Shown one piece after another: positions 1 through 49,201 of a stretch of DNA of 64,000 nucleotides (positions are counted from its first letter, which is position 1; each line of letters begins with the position of its first letter). This stretch comes from Candidatus Aceula lacicola (GTDB lineage: Bacteria > Omnitrophota > Gorgyraeia > Zapsychrales > Aceulaceae), in the NCBI GenBank assembly GCA_030765785.1, contig JAVCCC010000032.1:5787-69786 (forward strand), written 5' to 3'. Position numbers and translations under genes: made by a program. Under the pieces are notes generated by a model. The model saw only the letters and a list, made by a program, of their open reading frames with translations. It ran no database searches and was not told the origin of the DNA.

Positions 1-3000
1 CTTTAACAATTCCAGAAAAAGATTTGTGGGTCAATCTTTCTCCTTATGAAGAAAACCGCATTGTCGAAAAGAATTTCTCAGAAACAGACATGGGGAGAGA
101 TCTTTTGGCGCAAGATTATCTTTTAAAGCAAGTCGTGACCACATTGATTTATCCAGAGGGAGAGATAGGAAAAAAGTTTTGGGAAAAAGTTTACAAGAAA
201 GCATATGAACTTTTTGGTACGACTGAAGTCTCTGTTGATTCCTTGAACAAAGTGTGGATTGTTCCTGATAAGGCTGTTGTTTACGAAAGAGGAAATATGG
301 CTTTTGTTGCAGAGTCGAATCTTAAGGTTTTTATGGAAAAAGATTATTTGGCATCGAAAGAATATCAAAAAGATTCTTTAAGCAAGGAAAAGTTAAACGT
401 TGATCAGAAGCCTAAGCGAATGGATTTTTCAGATCAAATCGTTCAGGAAGTCATCATTCCAGAATTGGAGAAAGAAGTAAATTTTGGGAAAACTTTCAGT
501 CCTTTACGGCAAATTTATCATGCTCTTATTTTGGCAGATTGGTTTAAAAAGAAATTATCAAACAGTCTTATCAATTATGTTTATACAGGCAAAGGAAAAA
601 CTTCTGGAATAGATGTTTATGATCAAAAGGAGGCTGGAAGAATTTATTCTCAATATATTGAGAATTATAAAAAAGGGACTTGTGATTATCTTAAAGCAGA
701 ATATGATCCATTTTTAAAAAAATATGTTCCTCGCAAGTATTTTTCGGGTGGAGTAACTTGTATGAATGTTGATAGCCAAGTCCTAGACAATCCCGACGAC
801 CTTTCCTCTTCTAATTTAAAGAATATTAAAAGGGATGCCGTGAAGTATCATATTGCTTTGCAGCAGGCACCTTCTCAGTTATCTAGCTCAATTTCTTCAG
901 ATGCAATTCTTCCTAAGGATGGATCGATTTTCAATAGTGAGTTTGCGCCTGGCGAATTTGTTCGTCAGCTTCCTGAGGAAAATCGCGAGTGGCATATGGA
1001 AAACTTAAAGGAGTGGATCATTGAGAACGCAGAGAGATATTTGAATGAGCGGCTTTCCGGTGCTATTCGTTGGGATATTTTTATGAACCACTCCTTGCCT
1101 TATTTTGGGTTTTCGAATGATCAGATATTAGAAATTGTTGATCGTCTTAAAGTAGAGGAGAAGTCTTTAAAGATTTCTTCTGAAGGTAATCGTCCGGCTG
1201 AGTGGGAAATGATTGAATCCCTTAAGAGTTCGGCGTGGCCCTATACACAGATAATGGCAAAGAATATCATTGCTTATTTAAGGTTTGAAGAGAGTGAATC
1301 TGCCGAAAAGGATTTTTCAGAGATTTTTAGGAGTGGACAAATTTTTAAAGAGAATATTATTTTTTCAATTTCTGGAATAAAAGAAAGCTACAAGCTTTAT
1401 CCGTATTTGCGACAAATTATTAAGGATACGTTTTTTTTATCGAGTTCAAAAACAGAAAGAATTGATAAGTTAATGCGCATCGCAGAACGTGAAGTCAATG
1501 TAAGCACGCACAAAGGACAAGACCTTTTGAATTTTTCTAACTTAAAGAAAATATTAGAAAGTAATCATCAAAGACGAAGAACGGGACCAAATGCAACCTA
1601 TGATCCTGAGGTTACGGAGGCTCTAGAAGAGTTAAAGATTCTGGCAGCAAGCCTGATCGATAAAACACCGGGGGCTATTGATGATGTTAAAGAAATTGTT
1701 AGCATATATTGCGATCAAGACATCTTGCTTAGACTTGAAGATGCTGTCGAGCTGTTTTCTGGCGGAGATAATCTTGAGGCGATTCTTGTGTTAACAAATA
1801 TTAGGTCAGATCTTTATTTGTTAATTGTCGAGCAAATAAAACAAGCAGATAAAATTAATCATAGTCGTCAGCAGCGCTATGGTCCCCATATTTCTCAGTC
1901 TCAAGAGAAGGCAACAATAGCTTATAAGCTTATGGAGGCAGATATTTTGATTGAGCAGATGATTGTTGATTCTTCTACGGAAGCTTTTTCTTTGGTTAGA
2001 AGCAACGCAAGTTTAAAATCTTTTTCTTTAGAGAATGTTAAAGATATTATCTTGTCGGTATACATTATTGCTAAAAATATGTCTCATTCGATCGGTGCGC
2101 AGCCAGCGTTAAATGTTTTTGCTGATAATTTAATCAAGCTAAGAGATTCTGACCATCTTGGCGAAGAAAAGGAATATTATAGAATTTATGGGTTAATTCA
2201 GCAGATTGAAGCTGAGCTTGCTGATAATGTTGATAATTTGGTGAAGGAATTTAAATTTCGCGTTGAAGCCATGCAAAAGAATCAAGGTGTTAATGATTAT
2301 GAAGATACGCCTGAGTCCCTAGGGTTTGTTCAGGATTTTCTGATTTCAACGATGTTAAGGCAATTTAGCGAACGATTTCTTTTGGATTGTAGGAAAATAA
2401 TTGATGAGATGGAGGGCCCTCAAGATTTGACGATGACAGTCGATTCGGTTTCTCAACGAAAGGTTAGAAAGATCGTAAACGTTCCTGTTGATCTAGATCA
2501 CATTCCTTTAATCGTTAGTTTTGAGTCAGCAACAGAAGATCAAATGAGGAAGATTGGATCTAAAGCCTTTGGCCTTTACATCATGAAGAAATTGGGTATG
2601 CCTGTTCCCCCGTGGTTTGTGATCCGGGCAAAGCCTCGAAAGGATATTTTTGATATTAATGAAGTCCGAGATGAGCTGGAAAACCAGATTAAGGAAATTG
2701 AAAAAAGTAGCGGAACAAAAATAGGAGACCCAAAGAATCCTTTGTTGTTTTCTTTGAGATCAGTATTTCAGGTTTCTATGCCGGGAGAGTTTCCAACAGT
2801 TTTAAATGTAGGGATGAATCAAGAAGTTTTTGAAGGATTGAAGGAATCTAGGGGTGAGAAATTCGCTTTAATTAGCTATCTTGCTTTCTTAAAAACATAT
2901 GCAGATATGTTATATCCTAATTTATCAGATAGAGTAAATATGGATGATTTTTTAGGAGACGATCAAGATATTGATAGTTTATTGGATTTTTTAAGTGGAC

Positions 3001-4202
3001 TTAAGATTTTTTTAAAGCAGTCTAAAATCAAAATTCCCGAAGATCCTTGGCAGCAAATAGAAATTATTGTAGATCATATTATGAATAAATCAACGACACC
3101 AGAAATAGAGAATTTCTTGGCTTTGCATGGTCTCCCAGATTCTTGGAAAGTGAGTGTTATTTTTCAGAAAATGGAGTTTGGCTATTTAAACGATGAATCT
3201 TATACGGCAGTTGCTCACACGAGGGATGTGATGACTGGCGAAGATAAATTTGACATTGAGGCGATTTATGGAGCAACAGGAGAGTCTGTTGTTGGGAAAA
3301 GAAGCTCTGCGCGCCAAGTTCATAATATTCTCCCGGTGGAGGATGAAGAAATGCTAGAAATTTTTAAGCCGCAGTTAGAAAAAATATTTGGTGGCCCTGT
3401 TGAGCTTGAAATTACCAGGGGCGAAAAGCTTCATTTCCTTCAAGCTAGAACAGGACATCTTGGGGCGCAAGCGCTAAAGAAAAGCTTGAACGATTTGGTT
3501 CAAGAGAAAATTTTAACAAAGGAAGAGGCGGCTTTTCAGATTGAAATTGCTGAGACCCTTTCTGGCAAGAATGAAATCTTTCCTAACGCAGAGTCTTTGG
3601 TTATCGCTGGTGGAATTAGCGGGGGCGTCATGGCAGGGCCAATTTGCTTATCTCTTGATCAGGCAAGGAAAGCCATGAGTGACGGGGAAAATGCTATTTT
3701 AATTCTAGAAAATACACCTGATAGAAATGATAAATCTTATTATGGAAAGAACCTAGGGGTTGTCACGGCTCACGGAGGCCCATCTCAACATTTTTCTGTT
3801 TGGTCAAGACAATATCACATGCCTTACATTTCGATGGTAAAAGACATTGAAATTGATCTGGGCAACAAAAAGATTAAAATGGGAGGCAGGCAGTTTAAAG
3901 AGGGAGATGTTGTCACGATGGATGGTTATCGTGGATTGATTTTTAATGGAAATGTTGTTAAGAATTCTTCTCCAGCGGGAAAAGGGGTCGGATCCTCTGC
4001 TGTTGGTGGTATCGACTTGAGTCGGACGTTTGAATCCTTAAATATAAAGATGGATCAGTCTGGATCACCTTTGCCTGTCGAGTTTCAAGATATTGATCAG
4101 ATTCATATTCGAGGATTGATTCCCGTGATTATTAATGTTGTGCCTGTTCAGAATGTATCAACGCTTCTTGGGATTAACGCAAAAGGTTTAGTTGGATTCT
4201 AA
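1..4202 (+). CDS. Giant multidomain protein, 5'-partial (frame open to window edge). Shared N-domain (~nt 1-780), unique middle, PPDK/PEP-synthase-type ATP-grasp domain (~2430-3500), PEP-utilizer swivel phosphohistidine domain (~3560-3960), shared C-terminal tail (~3990-4202)
   Basis: No in-frame stop back to nt 3. The N-terminus aligns with aa ~110-360 of the next gene (LWVNLSPYE..MGRDLLAQDY..KVWVIPETAVVYE..RKYFSGG). 'KLGMPVPPWFVI' and 'RSVFQVSMPGEFPTVLNVGMN' match the PPDK_N 'GLPVPPGF' and 'VSMPGMMDTVLNLGLN' motifs. 'VVTAHGGPSQHFSVWSRQYHMPYI' matches the 'GGRTSHAAIIARELGIPCVVG' swivel-His motif. No PEP/pyruvate barrel follows. Confidence 0.7.
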   Translation, partial: LTIPEKDLWVNLSPYEENRIVEKNFSETDMGRDLLAQDYLLKQVVTTLIYPEGEIGKKFWEKVYKKAYELFGTTEVSVDSLNKVWIVPDKAVVYERGNMAFVAESNLKVFMEKDYLASKEYQKDSLSKEKLNVDQKPKRMDFSDQIVQEVIIPELEKEVNFGKTFSPLRQIYHALILADWFKKKLSNSLINYVYTGKGKTSGIDVYDQKEAGRIYSQYIENYKKGTCDYLKAEYDPFLKKYVPRKYFSGGVTCMNVDSQVLDNPDDLSSSNLKNIKRDAVKYHIALQQAPSQLSSSISSDAILPKDGSIFNSEFAPGEFVRQLPEENREWHMENLKEWIIENAERYLNERLSGAIRWDIFMNHSLPYFGFSNDQILEIVDRLKVEEKSLKISSEGNRPAEWEMIESLKSSAWPYTQIMAKNIIAYLRFEESESAEKDFSEIFRSGQIFKENIIFSISGIKESYKLYPYLRQIIKDTFFLSSSKTERIDKLMRIAEREVNVSTHKGQDLLNFSNLKKILESNHQRRRTGPNATYDPEVTEALEELKILAASLIDKTPGAIDDVKEIVSIYCDQDILLRLEDAVELFSGGDNLEAILVLTNIRSDLYLLIVEQIKQADKINHSRQQRYGPHISQSQEKATIAYKLMEADILIEQMIVDSSTEAFSLVRSNASLKSFSLENVKDIILSVYIIAKNMSHSIGAQPALNVFADNLIKLRDSDHLGEEKEYYRIYGLIQQIEAELADNVDNLVKEFKFRVEAMQKNQGVNDYEDTPESLGFVQDFLISTMLRQFSERFLLDCRKIIDEMEGPQDLTMTVDSVSQRKVRKIVNVPVDLDHIPLIVSFESATEDQMRKIGSKAFGLYIMKKLGMPVPPWFVIRAKPRKDIFDINEVRDELENQIKEIEKSSGTKIGDPKNPLLFSLRSVFQVSMPGEFPTVLNVGMNQEVFEGLKESRGEKFALISYLAFLKTYADMLYPNLSDRVNMDDFLGDDQDIDSLLDFLSGLKIFLKQSKIKIPEDPWQQIEIIVDHIMNKSTTPEIENFLALHGLPDSWKVSVIFQKMEFGYLNDESYTAVAHTRDVMTGEDKFDIEAIYGATGESVVGKRSSARQVHNILPVEDEEMLEIFKPQLEKIFGGPVELEITRGEKLHFLQARTGHLGAQALKKSLNDLVQEKILTKEEAAFQIEIAETLSGKNEIFPNAESLVIAGGISGGVMAGPICLSLDQARKAMSDGENAILILENTPDRNDKSYYGKNLGVVTAHGGPSQHFSVWSRQYHMPYISMVKDIEIDLGNKKIKMGGRQFKEGDVVTMDGYRGLIFNGNVVKNSSPAGKGVGSSAVGGIDLSRTFESLNIKMDQSGSPLPVEFQDIDQIHIRGLIPVIINVVPVQNVSTLLGINAKGLVGF
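2430..3960 (+). other. PPDK/PEP-synthase-like nucleotide-binding (ATP-grasp) plus swivel phosphohistidine domain segment inside the giant protein, lacking a PEP/pyruvate TIM barrel. Putative catalytic His codon at 3789-3791
   Basis: Motifs listed for the parent CDS; 'HTRDVMTGEDKF' resembles the PPDK 'FTRNPSTGEKKL' segment. Confidence 0.6.
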
Positions 4203-4387: not shown

Positions 4388-4418
4388 AAACGTTTTCAAA
4401 AGAAAACGTTTTCAAAAC
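4388..4418 (+). promoter_or_regulatory. Tandem direct repeat 'aaacgttttcaaaaG/C' (4388-4402 and 4404-4418), each with an internal inverted repeat (cgtttt..aaaacg), located 140 nt upstream of giant gene 2. Candidate operator or small hairpin
   Basis: Read directly from the sequence: acaaacgttttcaaaagaaaacgttttcaaaaccc. Confidence 0.35.
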
Positions 4419-4557
4419 CCTGACATTATTTTTATAATTTTTTTTCTATCAGTTAGGGGCAAAAATGCCACGATTTTATATATTTTAAAATAAACAAATA
4501 ACAATTAAACTTCATTTCTCAAATTAATTCGCCACGGAGAAAAAAAGGAGTAAATTC

Positions 4558-7500
4558 ATGATCAGTACATTCGAAGCGAGAAAATCAACTTTCTCTTATA
4601 AGGCACTTTGTGCGTTTGTCGCATTCGCTTTTTTTGCGACAATGGTTATTTTCCCTAATACAGCTCAGGCTCAAGGTGTGGCTAGTTTGCCGGCACCTGG
4701 AACTATGATCGGTATGACACCGGCATTTGCACCGCCAATTATTAAGGGTGTGCAGATTGATCCGCAGCATCCATTCCAGTTTAATTTTGTTCTTGATACT
4801 GGAGATGACCATGTCTCAGGCAAAAAGCTTGAACGCGAAGCCGACAAACTTATCAAATATTTCTTAGCTGCGATTACTGTTCCTGATGAAGATTTATGGG
4901 TGAACCTTTCTCCATATGAACAAGACCGCATCGTTCCAGAAGAATTTGGAAAAACAGAAATGGGACGTGATCTTTTGGCTCAGGATTATATTTTAAAACA
5001 ATTTACGGCATCCTTGATTTATCCTGAAGATGAGCTTGGAAAAACGTTCTGGGATCGAGTATACAAAAAAGCATATGAAAAGTATGGCACAACGGATATC
5101 CCTGTTAATACTTTTAACAAAGTATGGGTTATTCCTGAGACAGCCGTTGTTTATGAGCATGAAGGCACAAGCGCTTTTGTTGTTGAAAGACATCTAAAAG
5201 TTATGCTTGAAGAGGACTATCTTGCCTTATCGAATAATTTAAATAATGAAAAAATTGGAACAAGCCTTCAGGGTGAGGCTGAATCTAAAGATGTGAATAG
5301 TATTTCTTCTGAGATTGTTCGAGAAATTCTTATTCCAGAGATTGAGAAAGAAGTTAACTTTGGAAAGAATTTTGCTAACCTTCGCCAGATTTATAATGCT
5401 ATGATTTTATCAACTTGGTACAAAAGACAGTTGCGCGAAAGTGTTTTTGCTGGTGCGTATGCGAATAAAAATAAAGTTTCTGGTGTTGATATTGCCGATA
5501 AAGCGCAAGCGCAGAAAATTTATAATCAGTATTTGGAAGCGTTTAAAAAAGGTGTTTGCGACTATATTAAGGTAGAGCAAGATTCTCAAACGGGAAGAAA
5601 TATTCCAAGAAAATATTTTTCTGGTGGTTCGAAGCATGTTTCAAAAAATGTTCGTGTTAAAAAGAATTTATCGTCTTTGACATCAAGACAAGCAGGAGAA
5701 TTCAGCGCGAGCGCTGGACCTTTGGCTGTTGTTAAGGGTTTTGCGGATCCGGCTAACATTAAGTCGGCAGGAGAGAGAGCAGTTTTAGGATACAGAGGTG
5801 CAAAGGATGATGTATCGGGTTCTCCAATAGTTGTCGATGACATAGATGGTAAGGATGAGTACGTCCTTCAAGTAGGAAGTGAGGGAGTTTTTGTTAAGGA
5901 TAAAAATTGGGTTCAATTTATAGGAAAGAGATTGAGGCCAATTCAAGCATTAGAGAAAGCAATCGATGTTTTTCTCTCTAAGCATTTTTCTAAAATAGAT
6001 TATGAAAGTATAGTTTTGCAATGGGATCGAGCTCAAACTCGATTAGATGGGGTTGATGTTGTCTCATTGTCTCAAGGGAAGATAGATCAGATATCGGAAT
6101 CGTTAAAAAAGGCATCAAAACGCAGTCAGAGTCTAGACACAGATTTTAAGATTATGATGGATAATTTAAAATTTTATCAAGATCGACTTGAAAAAATAGT
6201 TGGAGACCTTGCGTATGAGGTGAGTAATGGCAAGAAAGTTTCTGAAATAAATTCGAACGATCTTTTGAGAAAGGCCAGAGAAGGGGAAAAAGATACAAAA
6301 ATTTTAGATGAATCTGGTTTGACAAAATTATTCAGGAAAGTAAGTGGATTTTTAAGGCTTGAACAATTTACAGCGATTAATGTCGCTGTTTCTCTTCATA
6401 GTATGCTTTTAAAATTTGCTGGAACAGATGCTCCTGGTTGGCAGTGGGCTTTGTGGGCGTTAGCTACCTTTTCTGTCACAACCATTATTCATGAGTTAGG
6501 TCACTGGTATCAAGGTCAGAAATCTAACACTCTTACATTGGAAGAAATTCCTTTTAAGATTATAAGAGATTCAGGAAAAATAAAGGATTCTTTGCTACTA
6601 AAATATTACAAGAATCAATCTGTTCTAAAACAATCGATTGAGGAGAAGATGCTTAAAGATAAGCTTTTTAAAGAAGAAGTTGAAGATTTTGTGAAAGGCC
6701 TTGAGTTTAAAAGTGTTTCTGGAGATAAACTGATTTTTGATGTTAGCGAAATTGATAAAAAACTTTCTGATGGAAAGAAAGAAAAGTTTTTTGAATATTT
6801 TGAAAAAGATAGCTGGCTGATGGATTCTAAAAAAGAGCACGAAATGCGAACAGGTATGGCTAATTATTGGGAAAAGACAAAATTGATTAACCGTTTAAAA
6901 AGACATGATATTATTAAGGGGTCAAAGTGGATTCCAGAATGGCTGACTTTTAACGCGCGAGGCTTGCAAGTTAATTTTAGCCGAACAACTTTGCAAAATC
7001 TTGCCTATGGGCCTCTTTTTAGCGCTTGGATGACAGGGGGAGCGATAGCGGTTTTGTTGGCTTCTCTTATTGTTCCTGGACTAGCCACAACATGGGTTCC
7101 TGGACTAGCGCTAACAACAGTTGTCATTGGGCTTTTTAATTCCATTTTTGCTGATAATTCAGCTCTTTTAGATTTAATAAAAGAAAAAAGGTTGGACCGA
7201 GCACGTAAAAAGGCAGTTAAGGCAGGTGTTGGCAAAGAAGAAGCAAAAACCATAGATGTTGATTTGCTTGTTAAGGGTAAAGATGGCAAGATGAGATCTT
7301 GGAGCATGATGAATCCTGAAGATATCAGAAGCATTGTGCGATATGATGAAAAAAAGAATGTTTATGTTCTCCCAGCAATGATTCATTGTAACGTTATTAA
7401 TGGCGGAAAACATTCAGACGGAAGCGCAACATTTCAGGAGTGGATGTATTTGCCTCTTGGGTCTGAGAGTGTTGATGAGGCCTTAGAAAAATTAACTGAC

Positions 7501-9246
7501 CTTTTTGATGCATTAAAACGAATTGTTCGAGCTGAATATGGGACATTGGGGGAAATGGGGAAAGAAGGAGGAATTGCCCCTATTTTACCAAACCAGAGAG
7601 AAATCCTTGTTTTGATGCGTAAAGCAGGAGAATTGTGCGGTTATGTTGAAGGAAAAGATTTTGCATATTCGCTTGATATTGCGGCTAGTGAGATGGAAAA
7701 TGCGGCAGAAAAAGCGGGTGAGCCGGGACAGTATCGAATGTTCAAAGACAGAAATCCAGTGAATTTACAGACGGATCAATTAATAGACGTATATGGAGAA
7801 TTAATAAAAGAATTTTGTATTATTTCTATTGAGGATCCTTTTCACGAAGATGATGTGGAAGGGTATACGAAATTTACAAAACTTTACGGAAAGAACGGAA
7901 CACGTCTTGAGGGTCTTCGTTTTCCGATTCAGAAAAAAGGGATACAGATTGTTTTAGATGACATCTCTGCGACGAATCCTATGTTAATTTACGCATTGAA
8001 ACAGGCAGGATGCGGAAATTCTATTTTGATTAAGCTTAATCAAATAGGGACGGTAACTGAAACGATTAATGCCATCAAAATTACGGAAGGCAATGGCGTT
8101 CCATTATTGCAAAAGGAAAAAGATGGTAAAGAATATGCTGATTCCTATGGAACAAAAATTTCACATCGTTCTGGGGAAACTGAGGACACCCTTCTTGGAG
8201 ATTTTGTTGTTGGAATGGGTGGTGGCCAGCTTAAAACCGGATCGGTAAATCGATCAGATAGAATGGGAAAATACAATCGATTGAAGAAAATAGCACATTT
8301 TTTAGAAGCGAATGTGGCCAAGAAGCGATCGTTATTAATTAAGCCGAAAGGTGAAATTATCATTACGGATGCTTTGGCAACAGATACCTATGATTCTAAT
8401 GGGAATCCGACAGTAACGCTTGAACTTTATTTTTCTAATGGCAGTAAGCAGGAAGCAACGGTTCCTTCTGGAGCTTCAACTGGTAAAAGAGAAGCTCAAG
8501 AATTGCGAGATGGTGACAAAGAACACCATCGAGGAAAAGGAACTAAGAAAGCGACAAAAAATGCTGCAGACTTGGCGGAGAAAATATTAGTAGGAAAGAA
8601 GCTTTCAGAGCTGAACCAATTTGATGTTGATCAGGCTATGCTGAGAGACGAGTTAGAAAAAGGGAAAGTAAACAATTATCAAGAAATTAAAAAAAGAGGA
8701 AAAAATCCTATTATTAATTTAGAGCGAGATGAATATTTAAATACGGTTGAGCAACAGCTTTATAAAACAGAGAATGGGGCTAATGCAATGTTGGCTGTGT
8801 CTATGGCGTTTGCGAGAGCTAAGGCATATTCTGAAGGACTTGAGCTATTTCAATATTTTGCCGAATTGAAGAAAGAGCCAATGAGGCAGGATGAATTGTA
8901 TGGTGTAAAGGTTCATTTTAATCCTCTTGATGCGAATGTTGTCTCCTCTGGAATACCTACAAATGTAAAAACATTAGATAGATCAGTATCTTTTCCACCT
9001 GTTGCCAGCGTTGGCGCAATCGACAACAATGAATCTCTTGGTGGTATTAGCATGAATTCTGGATTATTGGATCTTCAAATCAAGAGAGATAGCGCAGGTT
9101 CACCGCTTCCAATCAGTCAGCAACCGATTATGAATATGAATATTCAAGGGTTTAAATTTAATATTATGACAATTACGCCAATTACAACAACGTTGCCGAT
9201 GTATTTGGGGATGAGTGATGGTGATTTGTCGATTGCAATGTTGTAA
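4558..9246 (+). CDS. Giant secreted/membrane protein (1562 aa). Signal peptide, shared N-domain (~4860-5640), HELGHW zinc-peptidase-like motif in a hydrophobic segment (6490-6504), two TM helices (~7000-7170), circularly permuted enolase (~7357-8875), shared C-terminal tail (~9040-9246)
   Basis: RBS aaaaaaggag 8 nt upstream of the ATG. N-terminal 'FVAFAFFATMVIFPNTAQAQ' reads as a signal peptide. Enolase signatures 'SILIKLNQIGT', 'ISHRSGETED' and 'GQLKTGSVNRSDR' precede 'DSNGNPTV..VPSGASTGKREAQELRDGD..NGANAMLAVSMA'. Confidence 0.8.
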   Translation: MISTFEARKSTFSYKALCAFVAFAFFATMVIFPNTAQAQGVASLPAPGTMIGMTPAFAPPIIKGVQIDPQHPFQFNFVLDTGDDHVSGKKLEREADKLIKYFLAAITVPDEDLWVNLSPYEQDRIVPEEFGKTEMGRDLLAQDYILKQFTASLIYPEDELGKTFWDRVYKKAYEKYGTTDIPVNTFNKVWVIPETAVVYEHEGTSAFVVERHLKVMLEEDYLALSNNLNNEKIGTSLQGEAESKDVNSISSEIVREILIPEIEKEVNFGKNFANLRQIYNAMILSTWYKRQLRESVFAGAYANKNKVSGVDIADKAQAQKIYNQYLEAFKKGVCDYIKVEQDSQTGRNIPRKYFSGGSKHVSKNVRVKKNLSSLTSRQAGEFSASAGPLAVVKGFADPANIKSAGERAVLGYRGAKDDVSGSPIVVDDIDGKDEYVLQVGSEGVFVKDKNWVQFIGKRLRPIQALEKAIDVFLSKHFSKIDYESIVLQWDRAQTRLDGVDVVSLSQGKIDQISESLKKASKRSQSLDTDFKIMMDNLKFYQDRLEKIVGDLAYEVSNGKKVSEINSNDLLRKAREGEKDTKILDESGLTKLFRKVSGFLRLEQFTAINVAVSLHSMLLKFAGTDAPGWQWALWALATFSVTTIIHELGHWYQGQKSNTLTLEEIPFKIIRDSGKIKDSLLLKYYKNQSVLKQSIEEKMLKDKLFKEEVEDFVKGLEFKSVSGDKLIFDVSEIDKKLSDGKKEKFFEYFEKDSWLMDSKKEHEMRTGMANYWEKTKLINRLKRHDIIKGSKWIPEWLTFNARGLQVNFSRTTLQNLAYGPLFSAWMTGGAIAVLLASLIVPGLATTWVPGLALTTVVIGLFNSIFADNSALLDLIKEKRLDRARKKAVKAGVGKEEAKTIDVDLLVKGKDGKMRSWSMMNPEDIRSIVRYDEKKNVYVLPAMIHCNVINGGKHSDGSATFQEWMYLPLGSESVDEALEKLTDLFDALKRIVRAEYGTLGEMGKEGGIAPILPNQREILVLMRKAGELCGYVEGKDFAYSLDIAASEMENAAEKAGEPGQYRMFKDRNPVNLQTDQLIDVYGELIKEFCIISIEDPFHEDDVEGYTKFTKLYGKNGTRLEGLRFPIQKKGIQIVLDDISATNPMLIYALKQAGCGNSILIKLNQIGTVTETINAIKITEGNGVPLLQKEKDGKEYADSYGTKISHRSGETEDTLLGDFVVGMGGGQLKTGSVNRSDRMGKYNRLKKIAHFLEANVAKKRSLLIKPKGEIIITDALATDTYDSNGNPTVTLELYFSNGSKQEATVPSGASTGKREAQELRDGDKEHHRGKGTKKATKNAADLAEKILVGKKLSELNQFDVDQAMLRDELEKGKVNNYQEIKKRGKNPIINLERDEYLNTVEQQLYKTENGANAMLAVSMAFARAKAYSEGLELFQYFAELKKEPMRQDELYGVKVHFNPLDANVVSSGIPTNVKTLDRSVSFPPVASVGAIDNNESLGGISMNSGLLDLQIKRDSAGSPLPISQQPIMNMNIQGFKFNIMTITPITTTLPMYLGMSDGDLSIAML
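7357..8875 (+). other. Circularly permuted enolase module: C-terminal TIM-barrel domain (7357-~8320) followed by the N-terminal capping domain (~8350-8875). Metal ligands and catalytic residues apparently conserved
   Basis: Barrel start 'YVLPAMIHCNVINGGKHSD' compared with E. coli 'SMPVPMMNIINGGEHAD'. 'SLDIAASE', 'SIEDPF' and 'VLDDI' match Mg ligands D246, E290 and D317. K345, H373 and K396 equivalents are present. N-domain Ser in 'SGASTGKREA'. Confidence 0.7.
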
Positions 9247-26553: not shown

Positions 26554-27798
26554 ATGTTAAAAAAAAGAATTTATTTTGGAATTTTTAAAGTGGTGGCAGT
26601 ATTTTTATTTTTTGCGATTGCTCTATTTTTTGTCGCGGCTAATGTGTCTGCACAGGATAAGTCTGATATTGATCTTTTCGTCAAAGGAAATAATCGTTTT
26701 GCTTTGAATCTTTACGGGGAACTTAAAAGCGATGAAGGAAATTTGTTCCTCTCACCTTATAGCATTTCAACAGCGCTTGCCATGACATTTGAAGGGGCTG
26801 CTGGGGAAACCCAAAGGCAAATGGCTGATGTTTTGCATTTTGATATGTCGAAAAATCGGGTAGGGCGAGCATTTCTTTATTTAGCGCAAGGTTTATCAGC
26901 CTCGGCAAATTCAGATGGATACGAGCTTAATATTGCGAATGCGCTTTGGGGAGAAAAAACCTATACGTTTTTACCAGAGTTTCTTAATCAAACAAAGGAA
27001 TTTTATGGTGGAGCGCTTCGTAATCTTGATTTTTTAAATGAAACGGAGAAGTCACGTCAGATAATTAATGCTTGGGTTGAAGAGAAAACAAAAAATAAGA
27101 TTAAGAATCTCATCGGACCAGGAGTGCTTAGTCCTGCAACAAGACTTGTTTTGACTAACGCTATTTATTTTAAGGGAGATTGGATGACTCCTTTTAAGAA
27201 TTCAGATACATTTGACAGACTGTTTTATTTTTTATCAGGCGAGAGTGCCTCTGTGCCAACAATGAATCAAATGGCACATTTTAATTATGCAGAGGATGGA
27301 GATGTTCAAGTTTTGGAAATGCCGTATAAGGGAAATCGTCTTTCTATGGTGATTATTTTATCGAAGGAAAGAGATGGCATCAGTGCATTAGAGCAGAAGT
27401 TGACTGGTCAGAATTTAGCAAAATGGATTTCGAGTCTGAAATCGCAAGATGTGAATGTTTCTTTGCCAAAGTTTGAGGCAACAGTTGAATTTTCTTTAGC
27501 GAAGACTTTAGAGGGAATGGGCATGAGAGATGCGTTCTTACCTGTAGCCGATTTTTCTGGTATGAGTGGGAATAAAGATCTTTTCATTAGCGATGTGATT
27601 CATAAAGCATTTGTTAAAGTTGATGAAAAAGGCACAGAGGCAGCAGCAGCAACGGCTGTTGTAATGACTTTTAAGGGAGTGATGATGCCGCAGGAAACAA
27701 AGAAATTTACAGCAGATCATTCTTTTATTTTTATGATTCGAGACATGCAAACTAAAAGTATTCTATTTATTGGTCGCATTATGGATCCGAGGAGCTAA
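26554..27798 (+). CDS. Serpin (serine protease inhibitor) with signal peptide; copy 1 of a tandem pair
   Basis: RBS aaaggag. Hinge 'GTEAAAATAVV' and C-terminal 'FTADHSFIFMIRD..ILFIGRIMDP'. Confidence 0.85.
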   Translation: MLKKRIYFGIFKVVAVFLFFAIALFFVAANVSAQDKSDIDLFVKGNNRFALNLYGELKSDEGNLFLSPYSISTALAMTFEGAAGETQRQMADVLHFDMSKNRVGRAFLYLAQGLSASANSDGYELNIANALWGEKTYTFLPEFLNQTKEFYGGALRNLDFLNETEKSRQIINAWVEEKTKNKIKNLIGPGVLSPATRLVLTNAIYFKGDWMTPFKNSDTFDRLFYFLSGESASVPTMNQMAHFNYAEDGDVQVLEMPYKGNRLSMVIILSKERDGISALEQKLTGQNLAKWISSLKSQDVNVSLPKFEATVEFSLAKTLEGMGMRDAFLPVADFSGMSGNKDLFISDVIHKAFVKVDEKGTEAAAATAVVMTFKGVMMPQETKKFTADHSFIFMIRDMQTKSILFIGRIMDPRS

Positions 27799-27811
27799 AA
27801 AGGAGAGGACA

Positions 27812-29053
27812 ATGTTAAGAAAGACAATTTATTTCTTTGTATTTAGAAAATTTGCAGCATTTTTATTTTTTACGATTGCTTTATTCTTTGTCGCGGCTAA
27901 TGTGTCTGCACAGGATAAGCTGGATATTGATCTTCTCGTTAAAGGTAATAATCGTTTTGCTTTGAATCTTTATGGAGAGCTTAAAAGTGATGAAGGAAAT
28001 TTGTTTTTTTCACCTTATAGCATTTCAACAGCATTGGCTATGACATTTCAAGGCACTGAAGGCCAGACACAAAGAGAGATGGCTGATGTTTTGCATTTTG
28101 ATATGTCGAAAAATAGGGTAGGGCGAGCATTTCTTTATTTAGCGCAAGGTTTATCAGCCTCGGCAAATTCAGATGGATACGAGCTTAATATTGCCAATGC
28201 GCTTTGGGGAGAAAAAACCTATACGTTTTTACCAGAGTTTCTTAATCAAACAAAAAAGTTTTATGATGGCGGGCTTCATTCAGTTGATCTTATAAATGAA
28301 CCTGAGAAAACACGTCAGGTAATCAATGCTTGGGTTGAGGAAAAAACAAAGAATAAAATTAAGGATCTTATTGGACCAGGGGTGCTTAGCTCTACAACAA
28401 GACTTGTTTTGACTAACGCTATTTATTTTAAGGGAGATTGGATGACTCCTTTTAAGAATTCAGATACATTTGACAGACTGTTTTATTTTTTATCAGGTGA
28501 TAACGCCCCTGTGTCAACAATGAACCAGACGGTACATTTTAATTATACAGAAGATGATGATGTCCAAGTTTTGGAAATGCCTTATAAAGGAGATCGCCTT
28601 TCTATGATGATTCTTTTGCCAAAGAAAAGAAATGGCATAAACGCATTAGAGCAGAAATTAACTGTCCAAAAAATAGAAAATTGGATTTCAAACCTAATCT
28701 TTCAGGAAGCAGATGTTTCTTTGCCAAAGTTTGAGACAACAGTTGAATTCTCATTAGCAGATATTTTGGAAAGAATGGGTATGAGAGATGCTTTCTCGGG
28801 TGCAGCTGATTTTTCAGGAATGACAGAAAACAAGGATCTTTTTATTGGTGCTGTTATTCACAAAGCATTTGTTAAGGTTGACGAAAAAGGAACAGAGGCA
28901 GCAGCAGCAACAGCAGTTGTGATGGAAAATTTGGCTATAATGCCACAAGATATTAAAAAATTTAACGCAGACCATCCATTTATCTTTATAATTCGAGATA
29001 TGCAAACTAAAAGTATTTTATTTATTGGTCGCATTATGGATCCGAGGAGTTAA
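27812..29053 (+). CDS. Serpin with signal peptide; copy 2 of the tandem pair, with a divergent reactive-centre loop
   Basis: RBS aaaaggagagg. ~80% aa identity to copy 1. RCL 'MENLAIMPQDIKK' compared with 'MTFKGVMMPQETKK'. Confidence 0.85.
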   Translation: MLRKTIYFFVFRKFAAFLFFTIALFFVAANVSAQDKLDIDLLVKGNNRFALNLYGELKSDEGNLFFSPYSISTALAMTFQGTEGQTQREMADVLHFDMSKNRVGRAFLYLAQGLSASANSDGYELNIANALWGEKTYTFLPEFLNQTKKFYDGGLHSVDLINEPEKTRQVINAWVEEKTKNKIKDLIGPGVLSSTTRLVLTNAIYFKGDWMTPFKNSDTFDRLFYFLSGDNAPVSTMNQTVHFNYTEDDDVQVLEMPYKGDRLSMMILLPKKRNGINALEQKLTVQKIENWISNLIFQEADVSLPKFETTVEFSLADILERMGMRDAFSGAADFSGMTENKDLFIGAVIHKAFVKVDEKGTEAAAATAVVMENLAIMPQDIKKFNADHPFIFIIRDMQTKSILFIGRIMDPRS

Positions 29054-44970: not shown

Positions 44971-46236
44971 ATGAATCTCGACAGAGTTAGAAATCTTGTC
45001 CAACAGCATTTAATCACGAAAACAGATTTTTTATCTGTTAAAGATAAATTGGATGAAGATCAGTTGCGCTTGCAGACAAAGAGTGCCATTGATTTTATTT
45101 GTGCTCAAAACGAGATTGTACTTACGGATGAAGAGAAAGGAAGCTTGATTCGTGAAATGGTAAGCTCTGTCATTAGTCTTGGACCATTGCGTCCGCTAAT
45201 GGAAGACGATACAATTACAGAAATTATGATTAATGGGCCAGATACGATTTATCTTCAAAAAGATGGAAAGATTGAGCTTAGCGATGTTAAGTTTGCTGAT
45301 TCAAAAGAATTGATGCATACTGTTCAAAAGATTTTGTCTGCATCGGGATCGGGAAGGCGAGTCGATGAGTCTTCGCCATATGTTGATTTTTCTTTTCCTG
45401 ATGGATCGCGTGTCAATATTATTTTACCGCCAGTTTCTCTGGTTGGTCCGGTCTTGACCATTCGAAAGTTTTCATCTCAGATCGAAACTTTAGAGGATCT
45501 TCTAAAGTTAGAAATGTTAAGCCCTGAAATGGGAGATTTTTTAATCGCTGCGATTAAAGCAAAGCTCAACATTATTTTTTCTGGAGCAACTGGAACAGGA
45601 AAGACAACAGCGTTAAATGTTCTTTCAAAATATATTCCAGAAGAAGAGCGTATCATTACAATTGAAGATACGGCAGAGCTTGGGCTTAAGCAGAGACATG
45701 TTGTTCGGCTCCAAGCAAAATCGTCAAACATTGAAGGAAAGGGCGTTATCAGTATTCGAGATTTATTTATTAATTCGCTTCGTATGAGGCCTGACAGAAT
45801 TATTATTGGTGAGGTTCGCGGATCAGAGGCGCTGGATCTTATCCAATCAATTAGTAGCGGTCATTCTGGGTCGCTTGCGATTGTGCATGGCGATTCTCCT
45901 CGAGATTGTTACAATCGACTTGTTACGATGCTTTTGATGAGCGGTATTCATTTAAGTGTTGATGAAATCAGGCGTCAAATTGTAAGTGCGATTGATTTAA
46001 TTGTTCATGTAGAGCTTTTTGTAGATGGTAAAAGACGGATAACACATATTGCTGATTTACAGCATGATAAAGAAAAGAATGAAGTATCGTTGCATGACAT
46101 CTTTTATTATAAGCAAGAGAAGATTACAGATGAAGGGAAAGTGCTCGGCAATTGGTTTGTTAAAAAACGCAAGCCATCATTTCATGATAAATTTGTTAAA
46201 CGTAACGTTAAGTTAGACAAAAACTTTTTTGAATAG
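44971..46236 (+). CDS. CpaF/TadA-type secretion ATPase (type II/IV secretion NTPase family), orphan
   Basis: 'FSGATGTGKTT' Walker A and 'SSGHSGSLAIVHGDSPRDCYNRLVTM' CpaF-like His box. No Tad/Flp partners are adjacent. Confidence 0.7.
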   Translation: MNLDRVRNLVQQHLITKTDFLSVKDKLDEDQLRLQTKSAIDFICAQNEIVLTDEEKGSLIREMVSSVISLGPLRPLMEDDTITEIMINGPDTIYLQKDGKIELSDVKFADSKELMHTVQKILSASGSGRRVDESSPYVDFSFPDGSRVNIILPPVSLVGPVLTIRKFSSQIETLEDLLKLEMLSPEMGDFLIAAIKAKLNIIFSGATGTGKTTALNVLSKYIPEEERIITIEDTAELGLKQRHVVRLQAKSSNIEGKGVISIRDLFINSLRMRPDRIIIGEVRGSEALDLIQSISSGHSGSLAIVHGDSPRDCYNRLVTMLLMSGIHLSVDEIRRQIVSAIDLIVHVELFVDGKRRITHIADLQHDKEKNEVSLHDIFYYKQEKITDEGKVLGNWFVKKRKPSFHDKFVKRNVKLDKNFFE

Positions 46237-47992: not shown

Positions 47993-49189
47993 ATGGAAAG
48001 TGAATTATTAGTTATTTTAGATCAAATTGAGCGTGACAAAGGTATTAACAAAGAGATTTTAATCGAGGCTGTTGAGACGGCGGTTGCATCTGCGGCGCGT
48101 AAAGTTTGGACAATCGACAAAGAACAAGAGATTCAGGTCGTTTTAGACCGTTTGACAGGAAAGTTGACAGCTTATGCAGATGGTGAAGAGATTAAATCGA
48201 GGGACTTTGGGCGCATTGCCGCGCAGACGGCGAAACAGGTTGTCATTCAGAAAATTCGTGAGGCAGAAAAGGATGTTATTTATAGTGAGTACTATGCTCG
48301 CATTGGTCAGCTTGTAAACGGAAGCGTGTATCGCATTGACAAGGGAAACATCATTGTCGATTTAGCCAAAACAGAGGGATTTATTCCACGAAGCGAGCAA
48401 TCAAGCAAAGAAGAGTTTAAGCAAGGTGATCGTATTCGTGCTTATGTATTAGATGTTCGTCGAGAAAGCAAGGGGCCTCAAATTGTTTTGTCCCGATCGC
48501 ATCCAAATCTTGTTAAGCGACTTTTTGAGCTAGAAGTTCCTGAAATTTATGATGGAATTGTTGAAGTCAAGGCGATTGCGCGCGATGCTGGGGAGCGAAC
48601 CAAAATTGCCGTTCATTCAAAAGAGGAAAGGGTAGATTGCGTTGGCGCTTGTGTTGGCATGAGGGGATCTCGTGTTAAAAGTATTGTCACTGAACTTCAT
48701 GGTGAGAAAATTGATATTGTTCGACATGCAGAAGACAGGAGAACATATATTCAGGCCGCTCTTTCTCCAGCCGAAATCGTGGAAATGCATTTAAATGCTG
48801 AAGAAAAAAGAGCAGATATTGTTGTTCCGGATGATCAGCTTTCAATTGCAATTGGAAAACACGGACAAAATATTCGTCTTGCTGGTCAACTTCTTGGTTG
48901 GCAGCTAGAAGTTTTTTCTGAAGAGCAGTGGAAAGAGCACTCTGGAAAGTTACCAGAAAAGGCAACAGAGTCTATGGTTAAAGATAAGGGTCCTTCTGTC
49001 GCGGATTTAAGTGGTGTTGGTGACAAAGTCATTATGGCGCTTAACGAAAATAAGCTTTCAACTTTAGAGCAAATTGCTAAAAGTTCTGTTGAGGATTTAT
49101 CTCAGATTAAAGGGCTCGGAAAAGTTAAAGCAGAGAAAATGATCAAAGAAGCAAAGAAACTTATTAAACAAAAAAAGAAAAAAGGATAG
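47993..49189 (+). CDS. nusA: Transcription termination/antitermination factor NusA
   Basis: S1 and tandem KH domains ('VGACVGMRGSRV') and the rimP-nusA-infB context. Confidence 0.9.
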   Translation: MESELLVILDQIERDKGINKEILIEAVETAVASAARKVWTIDKEQEIQVVLDRLTGKLTAYADGEEIKSRDFGRIAAQTAKQVVIQKIREAEKDVIYSEYYARIGQLVNGSVYRIDKGNIIVDLAKTEGFIPRSEQSSKEEFKQGDRIRAYVLDVRRESKGPQIVLSRSHPNLVKRLFELEVPEIYDGIVEVKAIARDAGERTKIAVHSKEERVDCVGACVGMRGSRVKSIVTELHGEKIDIVRHAEDRRTYIQAALSPAEIVEMHLNAEEKRADIVVPDDQLSIAIGKHGQNIRLAGQLLGWQLEVFSEEQWKEHSGKLPEKATESMVKDKGPSVADLSGVGDKVIMALNENKLSTLEQIAKSSVEDLSQIKGLGKVKAEKMIKEAKKLIKQKKKKG

Positions 49190-49201
49190 TGAAAAATTAT
49201 T

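What the first reader, a model, noticed from the sequence alone, without database searches (positions are those of the whole stretch)
3990..4202. Conserved ~65-aa C-terminal tail shared by both giant proteins (second copy at 9040-9246): candidate sorting or anchoring signal
Gene 1 'GGIDLSRTFESLNIKMDQSGSPLPVEFQDIDQIHIRGLIPVIINVVPVQNVSTLLGINAKGLVGF' and gene 2 'GGISMNSGLLDLQIKRDSAGSPLPISQQPIMNMNIQGFKFNIMTITPITTTLPMYLGMSDGDLSIAML' align without gaps, while the upstream ~1000 aa are unrelated. A conserved C-terminal extension after heterologous cargo is the hallmark of dedicated export or attachment signals such as T9SS CTD, PEP-CTERM or LPXTG. I do not recognise this motif as any of those.
Basis: seen in the sequence. 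Interest (0 to 1): 0.65.

Follow-up and report, generated by a model that had tools for sequence, protein, structure and literature searches.

The report
Omnitrophota carrier proteins' conserved C-terminal tail
The shared tail is real, but it is one end of an undescribed two-ended "carrier" frame (signal peptide, N-terminal domain, variable enzyme, tail) found in thousands of Omnitrophota proteins, so it is not a free-standing sorting tag of any known kind.

Summary
The tail similarity is real. A family profile built without the window's own tails scores them at E 5e-23 and 2e-21, against 2.4 for the next-best window ORF.

The genes come from Candidatus Aceula lacicola (Omnitrophota). The tail has the consensus GGIDLNPxLLDLQIKRDGNGVPLPxxQQPIxxMxIEGFxPVIINVTPVxNLPLLLG, followed by an acidic extension. 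It hits 3,252 protein clusters and always lies within about 75 aa of the C-terminus. Every complete gene examined also carries a Sec-type signal peptide and a conserved ~320-aa N-terminal domain.

The variable middle holds cytoplasmic-type sugar-metabolism enzymes:
- a PPDK-like module and a circularly permuted enolase in the window;
- PGK, PGM, PGI, UDPGP, glycogen synthase, MalQ and FBPase in relatives.

The tail matches no Pfam, NCBIfam or PDB family. AlphaFold gives it no autonomous fold, its end is acidic rather than basic, and no sorting enzyme is conserved next to these genes.

My best reading (0.42) is a partner-dependent docking peptide that works with the N-terminal domain to assemble or localise exported enzymes. 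The main rival (0.28) is a second-step secretion or attachment signal.

The parts
3..4202 (+). Gene 1, with its 5' end cut by the window. The full protein is 1494 aa (MDP8264555.1, Candidatus Aceula lacicola).
   Evidence: The ORF is open to the window start. The full gene with its signal peptide was recovered on the parent contig at L080:5161-9645.
3..752 (+). Gene 1: the C-terminal about two-thirds of the conserved N-terminal domain (WVNLSPYE ... PRKYFSGG).
   Evidence: 51% identity to gene 2 residues 113-376, E 3e-81. Coordinates.
2511..3971 (+). Gene 1 cargo: a PPDK-like ATP-grasp domain plus the phosphohistidine 'mobile' domain. The PEP/pyruvate-binding barrel is absent.
   Evidence: Pfam PPDK_N 2.8e-16 and PEP-utilizers 6.9e-9. 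TIGR01828 is matched only over positions 4-510 of 865.
4005..4175 (+). Gene 1 tail core (GGIDLSRTFESLNIKMDQSGSPLPVEFQDIDQIHIRGLIPVIINVVPVQNVSTLLGI).
   Evidence: Translation. E 1.6e-21 against a family profile built without the window tails.
4176..4202 (+). Gene 1 short C-terminal extension (NAKGLVGF) and stop codon.
4558..9246 (+). Gene 2, 1562 aa (MDP8264556.1, annotated 'hypothetical protein').
4558..4671 (+). Gene 2 Sec-type signal peptide (K/R n-region, hydrophobic core, AQA|QG site).
   Evidence: Read directly from the sequence. The hydrophobic segment has KD 2.0. The same layout occurs in 114 of 122 family N-termini. This is a heuristic call; no dedicated signal-peptide predictor was available.
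4672..5628 (+). Gene 2 conserved N-terminal domain (no Pfam, NCBIfam or PDB relative).
   Evidence: 1,302 homologues at E<=1e-5, named Omnitrophota/Omnitrophica where a name exists. No Pfam match. No PDB sequence or fold match.
6490..7149 (+). Gene 2 hydrophobic region: a HELGH motif (6490-6504) and a TM-like hairpin (7000-7149). This is atypical for the family.
   Evidence: 104 of 112 family members have no TM-like segment between the N-domain and the tail.
7363..8880 (+). Gene 2 cargo: a circularly permuted enolase. The TIM barrel (7363-8304) comes before the enolase N-domain (8362-8880).
   Evidence: Pfam Enolase_C 5e-67 followed by Enolase_N 8e-31. BLASTP to E. coli enolase (sequence recalled from memory) aligns residues 144-416 first and then 4-141, with the catalytic motifs kept.
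9040..9210 (+). Gene 2 tail core (GGISMNSGLLDLQIKRDSAGSPLPISQQPIMNMNIQGFKFNIMTITPITTTLPMYLG).
   Evidence: Translation. E 4.9e-23 against a family profile built without the window tails.
9211..9246 (+). Gene 2 C-terminal extension (MSDGDLSIAML, containing the (D/E)-hydrophobic-S motif) and stop codon.
   Evidence: An M3-like motif is present in 91 of 248 family extensions against 4 in shuffled controls.

Best explanation
The tail is the C-terminal end of a two-ended carrier frame specific to Omnitrophota. The frame runs: cleavable Sec signal peptide, conserved ~320-aa N-terminal domain, variable cargo (often a complete sugar-metabolism enzyme), then a ~56-aa Pro/Gly-punctuated tail and an acidic extension.

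I propose that the tail is an extended docking peptide that becomes ordered only when bound. It would act together with the N-terminal domain, most likely by docking onto the N-domain of the same or another family member (head-to-tail chains or closed loops), or onto a receptor shared by all paralogs. That would hold different exported enzymes together in an envelope-associated assembly.

Shown:
- the family exists and is large;
- the tail sits strictly at the C-terminus;
- the tail is linked 1:1 with the signal peptide and N-domain;
- the cargo is diverse;
- no autonomous fold is predicted;
- no known sorting family is matched.

Inferred: export across the inner membrane (from signal-peptide features), binding to a partner, and the identity of that partner.
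For: Family size and position. The tail profile hits 3,252 cluster representatives (1,649 at E<=1e-10), in every listed case 1-75 aa from the C-terminus and once per protein.

Distribution. 184 tblastn-confirmed tails were found in GTDB species genomes. The 78 loci kept are Omnitrophota MAGs, a few labelled Planctomycetales or 'bacterium'. Several occur per genome, often in tandem. None were found in viral contigs.

Coupling to the N-domain. Every ORF complete within its locus has both the N-domain and the tail. All 'one end only' ORFs run off the locus or are frameshift-split neighbours. Nearly all representatives of 1000 aa or more also have both.

Constraint. About 24 of 56 core positions are at least 90% conserved across 60 diverse tails, including 6-7 prolines. 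That is far more constraint than a generic hydrophobic anchor or secretion signal shows.

Fold. In AlphaFold models the tail is coil and undocked in a full-length minimal member (pLDDT 34-52). Alone with 112 sequences it has no secondary structure (pTM 0.30).

Export. 114 of 122 N-termini have signal-peptide features. 104 of 112 members have no TM-like segment between the two ends, so both ends lie on the same side of the membrane.

Lineage-specific change. Both window tails share G-S-PLP where 291 of 309 family tails have V or I, and S occurs only in these two genes. Their N-domains are closer to other genomes' proteins (up to 64% identity) than to each other (51%). This fits co-adaptation of both tails to one lineage-specific partner.
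Against: - AlphaFold did not dock the tail onto the N-domain in cis. The alignment was shallow (43 sequences) and the model only moderate (mean pLDDT 58.9), so this is weak evidence. No multimer prediction was possible.
- Proteins with divergent tail variants (P0201, P0215/6) have ordinary N-domains, about 56-57% identical to gene 2. There is therefore no sign of lock-and-key co-variation.
- Only 2 of 112 conserved N-domain columns are changed in both window genes.
- No partner gene was identified.
- Exporting ATP/UTP-dependent enzymes such as PGK, UDPGP and the PPDK-like module makes no obvious biochemical sense outside the cytoplasm. Either the signal-peptide inference or the localisation model may be incomplete.
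Confidence: 0.42

Rival explanations
1. The tail is a second-step secretion or surface-attachment signal. After Sec export, a dedicated and still unidentified outer-membrane machinery would recognise it, by the same logic as the T9SS C-terminal domain. The N-domain would be a second element required by the same pathway, for example for retention, chaperoning or plugging.
For: - N-terminal signal peptide plus a strictly C-terminal conserved module on diverse cargo in a diderm.
- The tail is extended or disordered, like a linear signal.
- The tail is shared by all paralogs in a genome, and both window paralogs carry the same lineage-specific change.
- Published work places Omnitrophota long proteins next to secretion and pilus loci.
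Against: - No HMM match to any known C-terminal sorting or secretion domain.
- No beta-sandwich fold.
- A true tag should also occur on proteins without the N-domain, and none was seen.
- No secretion component is conserved next to the genes.
Confidence: 0.28
2. The tail has no targeting or docking role. It would be a conserved C-terminal piece of an ancestral ~550-aa protein into which cargo was repeatedly inserted, serving as an intramolecular regulatory, folding or pro-peptide element.
For: - Minimal members exist with only about 115-170 aa between the N-domain and the tail (P0133 549 aa, P0201, P0215/6).
- The two ends are strictly coupled.
- Short conserved linker motifs lie upstream of the tail ([SAG]SP[IVL] is 8-fold enriched; D.AM is frequent), which could be processing sites.
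Against: - AlphaFold shows no intramolecular packing of the tail.
- The very high conservation of a Pro/Gly-rich unstructured peptide argues for an external binding surface.
Confidence: 0.13
3. The tail is a classical sortase-, exosortase- or rhombosortase-type signal. It would be cleaved at a signature motif, and the protein would then be covalently anchored to the envelope.
For: - C-terminal position, signal peptide at the N-terminus, and a hydrophobic stretch (PVIINVTPVxNLPLLLG, mean KD about 1.6) after a conserved motif.
Against: - The extreme C-terminus is acidic (net negative in 168 of 205; median charge -4), with no basic cluster.
- The hydrophobic stretch is the most conserved part and contains invariant Pro and Asn, unlike the variable TM helices of such signals.
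- Gene 2's stretch falls below the TM threshold.
- No NCBIfam sorting-signal model matches 60 tails at E<=10.
- No sorting enzyme is found nearby.
Confidence: 0.07
4. The tail is a C-terminal membrane anchor (tail anchor) that holds the protein in the inner or outer membrane.
For: - Borderline hydrophobicity of the PVIINV...LLLG stretch in gene 1 (KD 1.63 over 19 aa).
Against: - Three conserved prolines and two asparagines lie inside the stretch.
- Gene 2's equivalent stretch scores below 1.3.
- The stretch is not predicted helical.
- Sequence-specific conservation far exceeds what a lipid-embedded anchor needs.
Confidence: 0.05

Closest known systems
T9SS C-terminal domain (CTD) cargo of Bacteroidota
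   Same: The layout is N-terminal Sec signal peptide, diverse cargo, then a conserved module of roughly 60-100 aa at the extreme C-terminus. It is found on many paralogs per genome and restricted to one phylum.
   Different: - The T9SS CTD is an autonomous beta-sandwich detectable with TIGR04183, TIGR04131 or PF18962. This tail has no such match and no predicted fold.
- CTDs sit on unrelated architectures, whereas this tail is always paired with one N-terminal domain.
- The cargo here is cytoplasmic-type metabolic enzymes.
Flagellin-type two-ended polymer subunits, including enzymatic flagellins (from my own knowledge, not tested here)
   Same: Conserved N- and C-terminal regions flank a hypervariable middle that can hold an enzyme domain. 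The terminal region is disordered in the monomer.
   Different: - No sequence homology to flagellin (no Pfam hit).
- A Sec signal peptide is present, whereas flagellin is exported by a T3SS and has none.
- The N-domain here is a folded alpha/beta domain.
- Polymerisation is not shown.
Dockerin-cohesin (cellulosome) enzyme tethering
   Same: A short C-terminal docking module on signal-peptide-bearing enzymes would tether different catalytic subunits into one extracytoplasmic complex. Dockerin-type giant proteins have been reported in Omnitrophota.
   Different: - No dockerin HMM match and no duplicated Ca-binding segment.
- The candidate receptor (the N-domain) sits on the same polypeptide.
- The cargo is glycolytic or glycogen enzymes, not polysaccharide-degrading enzymes.
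PEP-CTERM/exosortase and LPXTG/sortase sorting signals
   Same: C-terminal position, an N-terminal signal peptide, and a conserved motif followed by a hydrophobic stretch.
   Different: - The end is acidic, not basic.
- The hydrophobic stretch is conserved and rich in Pro and Asn.
- No HMM match.
- No co-located sorting enzyme.
Omnitrophota long and giant proteins ('Archaeovorins'; the sugar-metabolism Pfam module)
   Same: Same phylum. Signal peptides or TM segments are common, and PPDK, phosphoglucomutase, starch synthase and response-regulator domains have been reported inside long proteins.
   Different: Those papers, as far as the text searches show, do not describe the N-domain/tail frame or the GGIDLNP motif. 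The family here is mostly 0.55-5 kaa rather than above 10-30 kaa.

Membership tests
T9SS C-terminal sorting domain | Detectable by CTD models (TIGR04183, TIGR04131, PF18962, PF13585) | tested here: not met
   No Pfam or NCBIfam hit for the two window tails. Nothing recurrent for 60 tails at E<=10.
T9SS C-terminal sorting domain | Autonomous beta-sandwich fold of about 70-100 aa | tested here: not met
   AlphaFold on the tail alone (112 sequences) gives no secondary structure and pTM 0.30. In a full-length model the tail is coil with pLDDT 34-52.
T9SS C-terminal sorting domain | Cargo carries an N-terminal Sec signal peptide | tested here: met
   Signal-peptide features in gene 2, full-length gene 1 and 114 of 122 family N-termini. 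This is a heuristic assessment.
T9SS C-terminal sorting domain | The tag occurs on many otherwise unrelated proteins | tested here: not met
   The tail always co-occurs with the same N-terminal domain.
T9SS C-terminal sorting domain | T9SS machinery genes (PorU/PorV/Sov/GldKLMN) in the genome | not tested
   Only 64 kb plus flanks of this genome were available. None were seen among the window genes scanned.
Sortase/exosortase/rhombosortase-type signals (LPXTG, PEP-CTERM, GlyGly-CTERM etc.) | Tripartite end: signature motif, variable TM helix, basic cluster | tested here: not met
   The extension after the core is net negative in 168 of 205 cases, with median charge -4. The hydrophobic stretch is highly conserved and contains Pro and Asn.
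Sortase/exosortase/rhombosortase-type signals (LPXTG, PEP-CTERM, GlyGly-CTERM etc.) | Match to the NCBIfam/TIGRFAM sorting-signal models | tested here: not met
Sortase/exosortase/rhombosortase-type signals (LPXTG, PEP-CTERM, GlyGly-CTERM etc.) | A dedicated sorting enzyme co-occurs in the genome | tested here: inconclusive
   No such gene is conserved within about 10 kb in 79 loci. Genome-wide co-occurrence could not be tested.
Type I secretion (RTX-type) C-terminal signal | No N-terminal signal peptide, and GGxGxD nonapeptide repeats upstream of the signal | tested here: not met
   A signal peptide is present. No RTX or HemolysinCabind domain appears in the window proteins or in 64 family members.
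Dockerin | Duplicated Ca-binding segment, PF00404 match | tested here: not met
   No Pfam hit. No internal duplication in the tail.
Autotransporter (T5SS) | C-terminal beta-barrel of at least about 250 aa | tested here: not met
   The conserved C-terminal module is about 56 aa plus a median 33-aa extension. No autotransporter Pfam hit.
New Omnitrophota N-domain/tail carrier family (defined here) | Signal peptide, WVNLSPYE...PRKYFSGG N-domain, and a GGIDLNP...PVIINVTP...LLLG tail at the C-terminus | tested here: met
   Both window genes have all three elements.

The most novel reading that the evidence does not exclude
Omnitrophota export whole sets of glycolytic and glycogen-metabolism enzymes (enolase, PGK, PGM, PGI, FBPase, UDPGP, glycogen synthase, MalQ, PPDK modules) on a self-docking N-domain/tail carrier. 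The carriers would build an extracytoplasmic multi-enzyme assembly on the cell surface, in an enlarged periplasm, or delivered into prey. That would amount to a previously unknown protein-assembly or targeting system tied to the proposed predatory or parasitic lifestyle of the phylum.
Probability: 0.15. Interest if true: 0.9.

Novelty: new variant of a known kind. Interest (0 to 1): 0.66.

Why it matters
Omnitrophota are uncultured, ultra-small and possibly predatory bacteria. Their many long proteins are noted in the literature but not understood.

This work shows that a large share of them follow one building plan: signal peptide, conserved N-domain, exchangeable enzyme, conserved tail. The plan occurs in at least 3,252 protein clusters and has no Pfam, NCBIfam or PDB relative.

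The result turns a vague category ('hypothetical giant proteins') into a defined family with two testable handles, the N-domain and the tail. It also raises a sharp question: why would cytoplasmic-type, nucleotide-dependent sugar-metabolism enzymes carry export signals?

If the two ends dock to each other or to a common receptor, this would be a new way of building multi-enzyme assemblies, and a potential scaffold for protein engineering.

If the tail is a secretion signal, it marks an undiscovered export route in the PVC group.

Tried and rejected
- **Known C-terminal sorting domains.** Pfam and NCBIfam scans of the two tails and of 60 diverse tails at E<=10 gave nothing recurrent. The best hits were 2-4 members with unrelated families. 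A PDB sequence search with the tail profile gave only E 0.07 and above, which is noise.
- **Mixed-fragment alignment for structure prediction.** MAFFT aligned the end of the N-domain ('G(I/V)D..D') onto the tail's GGIDLNP. Alignment A5 is therefore corrupt and was discarded. It was replaced by an alignment of full-length members only (A6).
- **Internal extra tail copies.** The first small profile suggested some, but they disappeared with the better profile.
- **Conserved neighbours.** Clustering 1,018 flanking ORFs from 79 loci gave only ABC ATPases, response regulators and a menaquinone cluster belonging to one orthologous locus. No sortase, protease or secretion partner emerged.
- **Tail-based protein word search.** It returned only short fragments, which were not useful for a cargo census.
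- **Viral contigs.** No relative was found.
- **Literature.** No paper contains 'GGIDLN'. Three Omnitrophota papers do not describe this frame.
- **Compensatory changes.** Looking for N-domain changes that match the lineage-specific tail change found 2 of 112 conserved columns changed in both genes. One is E to A/V in the YIKED motif. This is about the chance level and is only a lead.
Full report
**1. The observation**

They are the ends of two adjacent + strand ORFs, 24..4202 and 4558..9246.

BLASTP of the two proteins gives a separate C-terminal match of 16/40 identities with no gaps (E 2e-5). A profile made from 58 tails of other organisms, with the window's own tails left out, scores the two ORFs at E 4.9e-23 and 1.6e-21. 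The next-best of the window's 987 six-frame ORFs scores E 2.4. The similarity is therefore real, and there are exactly two copies in the window.

The 57-aa cores are 32% identical in protein and 47% in DNA, so this is old, selected similarity rather than recent gene conversion.

- One 1-residue indel is needed near the end of the alignment.
- The proteins are not unrelated upstream. Their N-terminal regions are 51% identical over 264 aa (E 3e-81).

Gene 1 is cut by the window edge. On the parent contig it encodes 1494 aa and begins with its own signal peptide.

**2. Organism and context**

Both proteins are on record for Candidatus Aceula lacicola, phylum Omnitrophota. Gene 1 is MDP8264555.1, annotated 'PEP/pyruvate-binding domain-containing protein'. 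Gene 2 is MDP8264556.1, annotated 'hypothetical protein'.

The surroundings are ordinary chromosome: aroK, dprA, topA, xerC-like, kdtA, lpxK, LPS-core glycosyltransferases, KDO genes, nusA, infB and tRNA synthetases. The organism is therefore a diderm with LPS.

**3. The tail is a large family**

A profile of the tails, searched against 1.84 billion cluster representatives, found 3,252 proteins at E<=1e-3 and 1,649 at E<=1e-10. In all 153 sequences inspected the tail occurs once and ends 1-75 aa before the C-terminus.

The consensus is GGIDLNPxLLDLQIKRDGNGVPLPxxQQPIxxMxIEGFxPVIINVTPVxNLPLLLG. Across 60 diverse tails, 11 positions are invariant and about 13 more are at least 90% conserved, including 6-7 prolines.

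Divergent variants keep the two ends of the core (GGIDL..., and GFxPVIINIxP...L..LG) and change the middle.

After the core comes a variable extension with a median of 33 aa. It is net negative in 168 of 205 cases. Often it ends in a third small motif, (D/E)-hydrophobic-S-hydrophobic, for example ...EEISALN-COOH. This motif occurs in 91 of 248 extensions against 4 in shuffled controls. Gene 2's ...GDLSIAML fits it.

In GTDB species genomes, 184 tails were confirmed. The 78 loci kept are Omnitrophota MAGs, a few labelled Planctomycetales or 'bacterium'. Several occur per genome, often as tandem genes as in this window. None were found in IMG/VR viral contigs.

**4. The tail never comes alone**

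Nearly all representatives of 1000 aa or more also carry, at residues ~45-360, the N-terminal domain shared by the two window genes.

In the 79 genomic loci, every ORF that is complete within its locus has the N-domain at the start and the tail at the end. Every ORF with only one end either runs off the locus or is one half of a frameshift-split gene.

The N-domain itself has 1,302 homologues at E<=1e-5, named Omnitrophota/Omnitrophica where a name exists. It has no Pfam hit, no PDB sequence relative and no Foldseek match in the PDB.

In front of it, 114 of 122 N-termini have a K/R-containing n-region, a strongly hydrophobic core and an (S/A)xA|Q site. That is a Sec-type cleavable signal peptide by heuristic criteria (gene 2; gene 1).

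Between the two ends, 104 of 112 full-length members have no TM-like segment. Gene 2, with a HELGH motif and a hydrophobic hairpin, is an exception. Minimal members have only about 115-170 aa between the ends (P0133, 549 aa).

**5. The cargo**

| Source | Cargo found |
|---|---|
| Gene 1 | PPDK ATP-grasp and phosphohistidine domains, without the PEP-binding barrel |
| Gene 2 | Complete but circularly permuted enolase with catalytic motifs intact |
| Locus L001 | PGI and PGM |
| 64 other members | UDPGP (7), PGM (4), PGK (3), starch/glycogen synthase (3), response-regulator receiver (3), MalQ, FBPase, PEP-utilizers_C, PP2C, CofD, HEAT and WD40 repeats |

Most middles have no Pfam hit. The theme is cytoplasmic-type central sugar metabolism.

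A 2026 preprint lists the same 'sugar-metabolism module' in Omnitrophota long proteins and reports that 94% carry signal peptides or TM segments. A 2023 preprint notes PPDK domains. Neither describes this frame in the searched text, and no paper contains 'GGIDLN'.

**6. Structure**

An AlphaFold model of the minimal member P0133, built with 43 full-length relatives, gives a moderately confident alpha/beta N-domain (pLDDT 70-88 over much of residues 40-280). The tail is low-confidence coil (pLDDT 34-52) and is not packed on the N-domain.

The gene 1 tail alone, with 112 sequences, gives pLDDT 70.8 but pTM 0.30 and no secondary structure.

The tail is therefore not an autonomous globular domain. 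It looks like an extended peptide with local preferences that would become ordered on a partner.

**7. Known signals excluded**

- No Pfam or NCBIfam model matches. These libraries include the T9SS CTD, PEP-CTERM, LPXTG, GlyGly-CTERM and related models.
- The end is acidic rather than basic.
- The hydrophobic stretch is the best-conserved part and holds Pro and Asn.
- The module is too short for an autotransporter barrel.
- A signal peptide and the absence of RTX repeats argue against type I secretion.
- No candidate sortase, protease or secretion gene is conserved within about 10 kb.

**8. Interpretation**

A portable sorting tag should occur on many unrelated architectures. This one is bound 1:1 to one N-terminal domain, so the two ends work together.

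Both ends are strongly conserved among paralogs whose middles are unrelated. The tail has no fold of its own. In this genome both tails carry G-S-PLP, where 291 of 309 other tails have V or I and none has S. Meanwhile their N-domains are closer to proteins of other genomes than to each other.

I therefore commit to the tail being a partner-dependent docking peptide of a two-ended carrier frame. Its most likely partner is the N-domain of the same or another family member, or else a receptor common to all paralogs. Either way it would tether exported enzymes into an assembly (confidence 0.42).

The logic resembles flagellin-type subunits, with conserved ends and a variable and sometimes enzymatic middle, and dockerin-cohesin tethering. 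These are resemblances in logic only; there is no homology.

The main rival is a second-step secretion or attachment signal read by an unknown machinery (0.28). Lesser rivals are an intramolecular regulatory or pro-peptide element (0.13), a sortase-type anchor (0.07) and a membrane tail anchor (0.05).

Weaknesses of my reading:
- No cis docking in the model.
- No co-variation between tail variants and N-domains.
- An unsolved paradox: nucleotide-dependent enzymes behind export signals.

**9. Verdict**

- The 'sorting signal' idea is partly supported in spirit (conserved C-terminal module on exported, diverse cargo, of no known kind) but not in form (it is not a free-standing tag).
- The family appears undescribed and phylum-wide.
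- Mechanism and localisation remain to be shown. Multimer prediction, genome-wide co-occurrence and terminomics would decide between the readings.

Noticed in passing
window 7363-8880: The enolase inside gene 2 is circularly permuted. The TIM barrel (E. coli residues 144-416) comes first and the N-terminal domain (residues 4-141) follows. All catalytic and metal-binding motifs are kept, and there are several insertions.
   Followed up: yes
window 2511-3971: Gene 1's PPDK-like cargo has only the ATP-grasp and phosphohistidine swivel domains. The PEP/pyruvate-binding barrel is missing. Another family member (among the L-loci) carries PEP-utilizers_C, so the enzyme may be split over different carrier proteins.
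   Followed up: partly
window 6490-7149: Gene 2 has a HELGH (HExxH) motif at the end of a hydrophobic stretch and a TM-like hairpin, with no Pfam match. 93% of family members have no TM-like segment in the middle.
   Followed up: partly
window 4065-4079 and 9100-9114 (the G-S-P-L-P codons): Both window tails have Ser in G-S-PLP, where 291 of 309 family tails have Val or Ile. Ser was seen only in these two genes. Both genes also replace a 91%-conserved Glu in the N-domain motif YIKED with Ala or Val. This may be a compensatory pair or plain lineage drift.
   Followed up: partly
window 3960-4004; family-wide, just upstream of tails: Short linker motifs recur in family proteins. [SAG]SP[IVL] is about 8-fold enriched over shuffles; an example is NSSPAG, a near-match to it, before the gene 1 tail. 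D.AM often occurs 5-25 aa before GGIDLNP. These could be linkers or processing sites.
   Followed up: partly
window 4388-4417: The 14-nt motif AAACGTTTTCAAAA, with the palindromic core AAAACGTTTT, occurs twice in tandem in the 355-bp AT-rich spacer upstream of gene 2. It overlaps the -35 of a promoter-like site (4409-4438) and may be an operator. No terminator-like site follows gene 1.
   Followed up: partly
window 26554-29053: Two tandem full-length serpin genes (Pfam Serpin, E about 1e-125 each), preceded by a response-regulator gene. Serpins are uncommon in bacteria.
   Followed up: no
L080 4238-5038 (parent contig, just upstream of gene 1); window 44971-46236: A prepilin peptidase (Peptidase_A24) gene lies directly upstream of gene 1, and a T2SS/T4P-type ATPase (T2SSE) lies in the window. 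The prepilin peptidase is not a conserved neighbour in other loci.
   Followed up: partly
L001 1293-10345; L029; L053; L069 130-6917: Several MAGs have family genes split by frameshifts. As a result, 60-140-aa 'tail-only' ORFs are annotated as separate hypothetical proteins (for example HZA28_08065 on the L069 contig). Break points vary, so these look like assembly errors or pseudogenes rather than programmed frameshifts.
   Followed up: partly
protein P0148 (295 aa): This database protein starts with a canonical enolase N-terminus (MIISVHARQIFDSRGNPTVEVDV...). From the PSGASTG motif onwards it is identical to the gene 2 C-terminus including the tail. It is probably an assembly chimera, which hints that a standalone enolase exists in the same or a related genome.
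   Followed up: no
window 1-64000: 52 of the 53 ORFs of at least 150 aa lie on the + strand. The single minus-strand ORF (49102-49752) overlaps the end of nusA and the start of infB and is probably spurious. This is an unusually long co-directional gene run.
   Followed up: no
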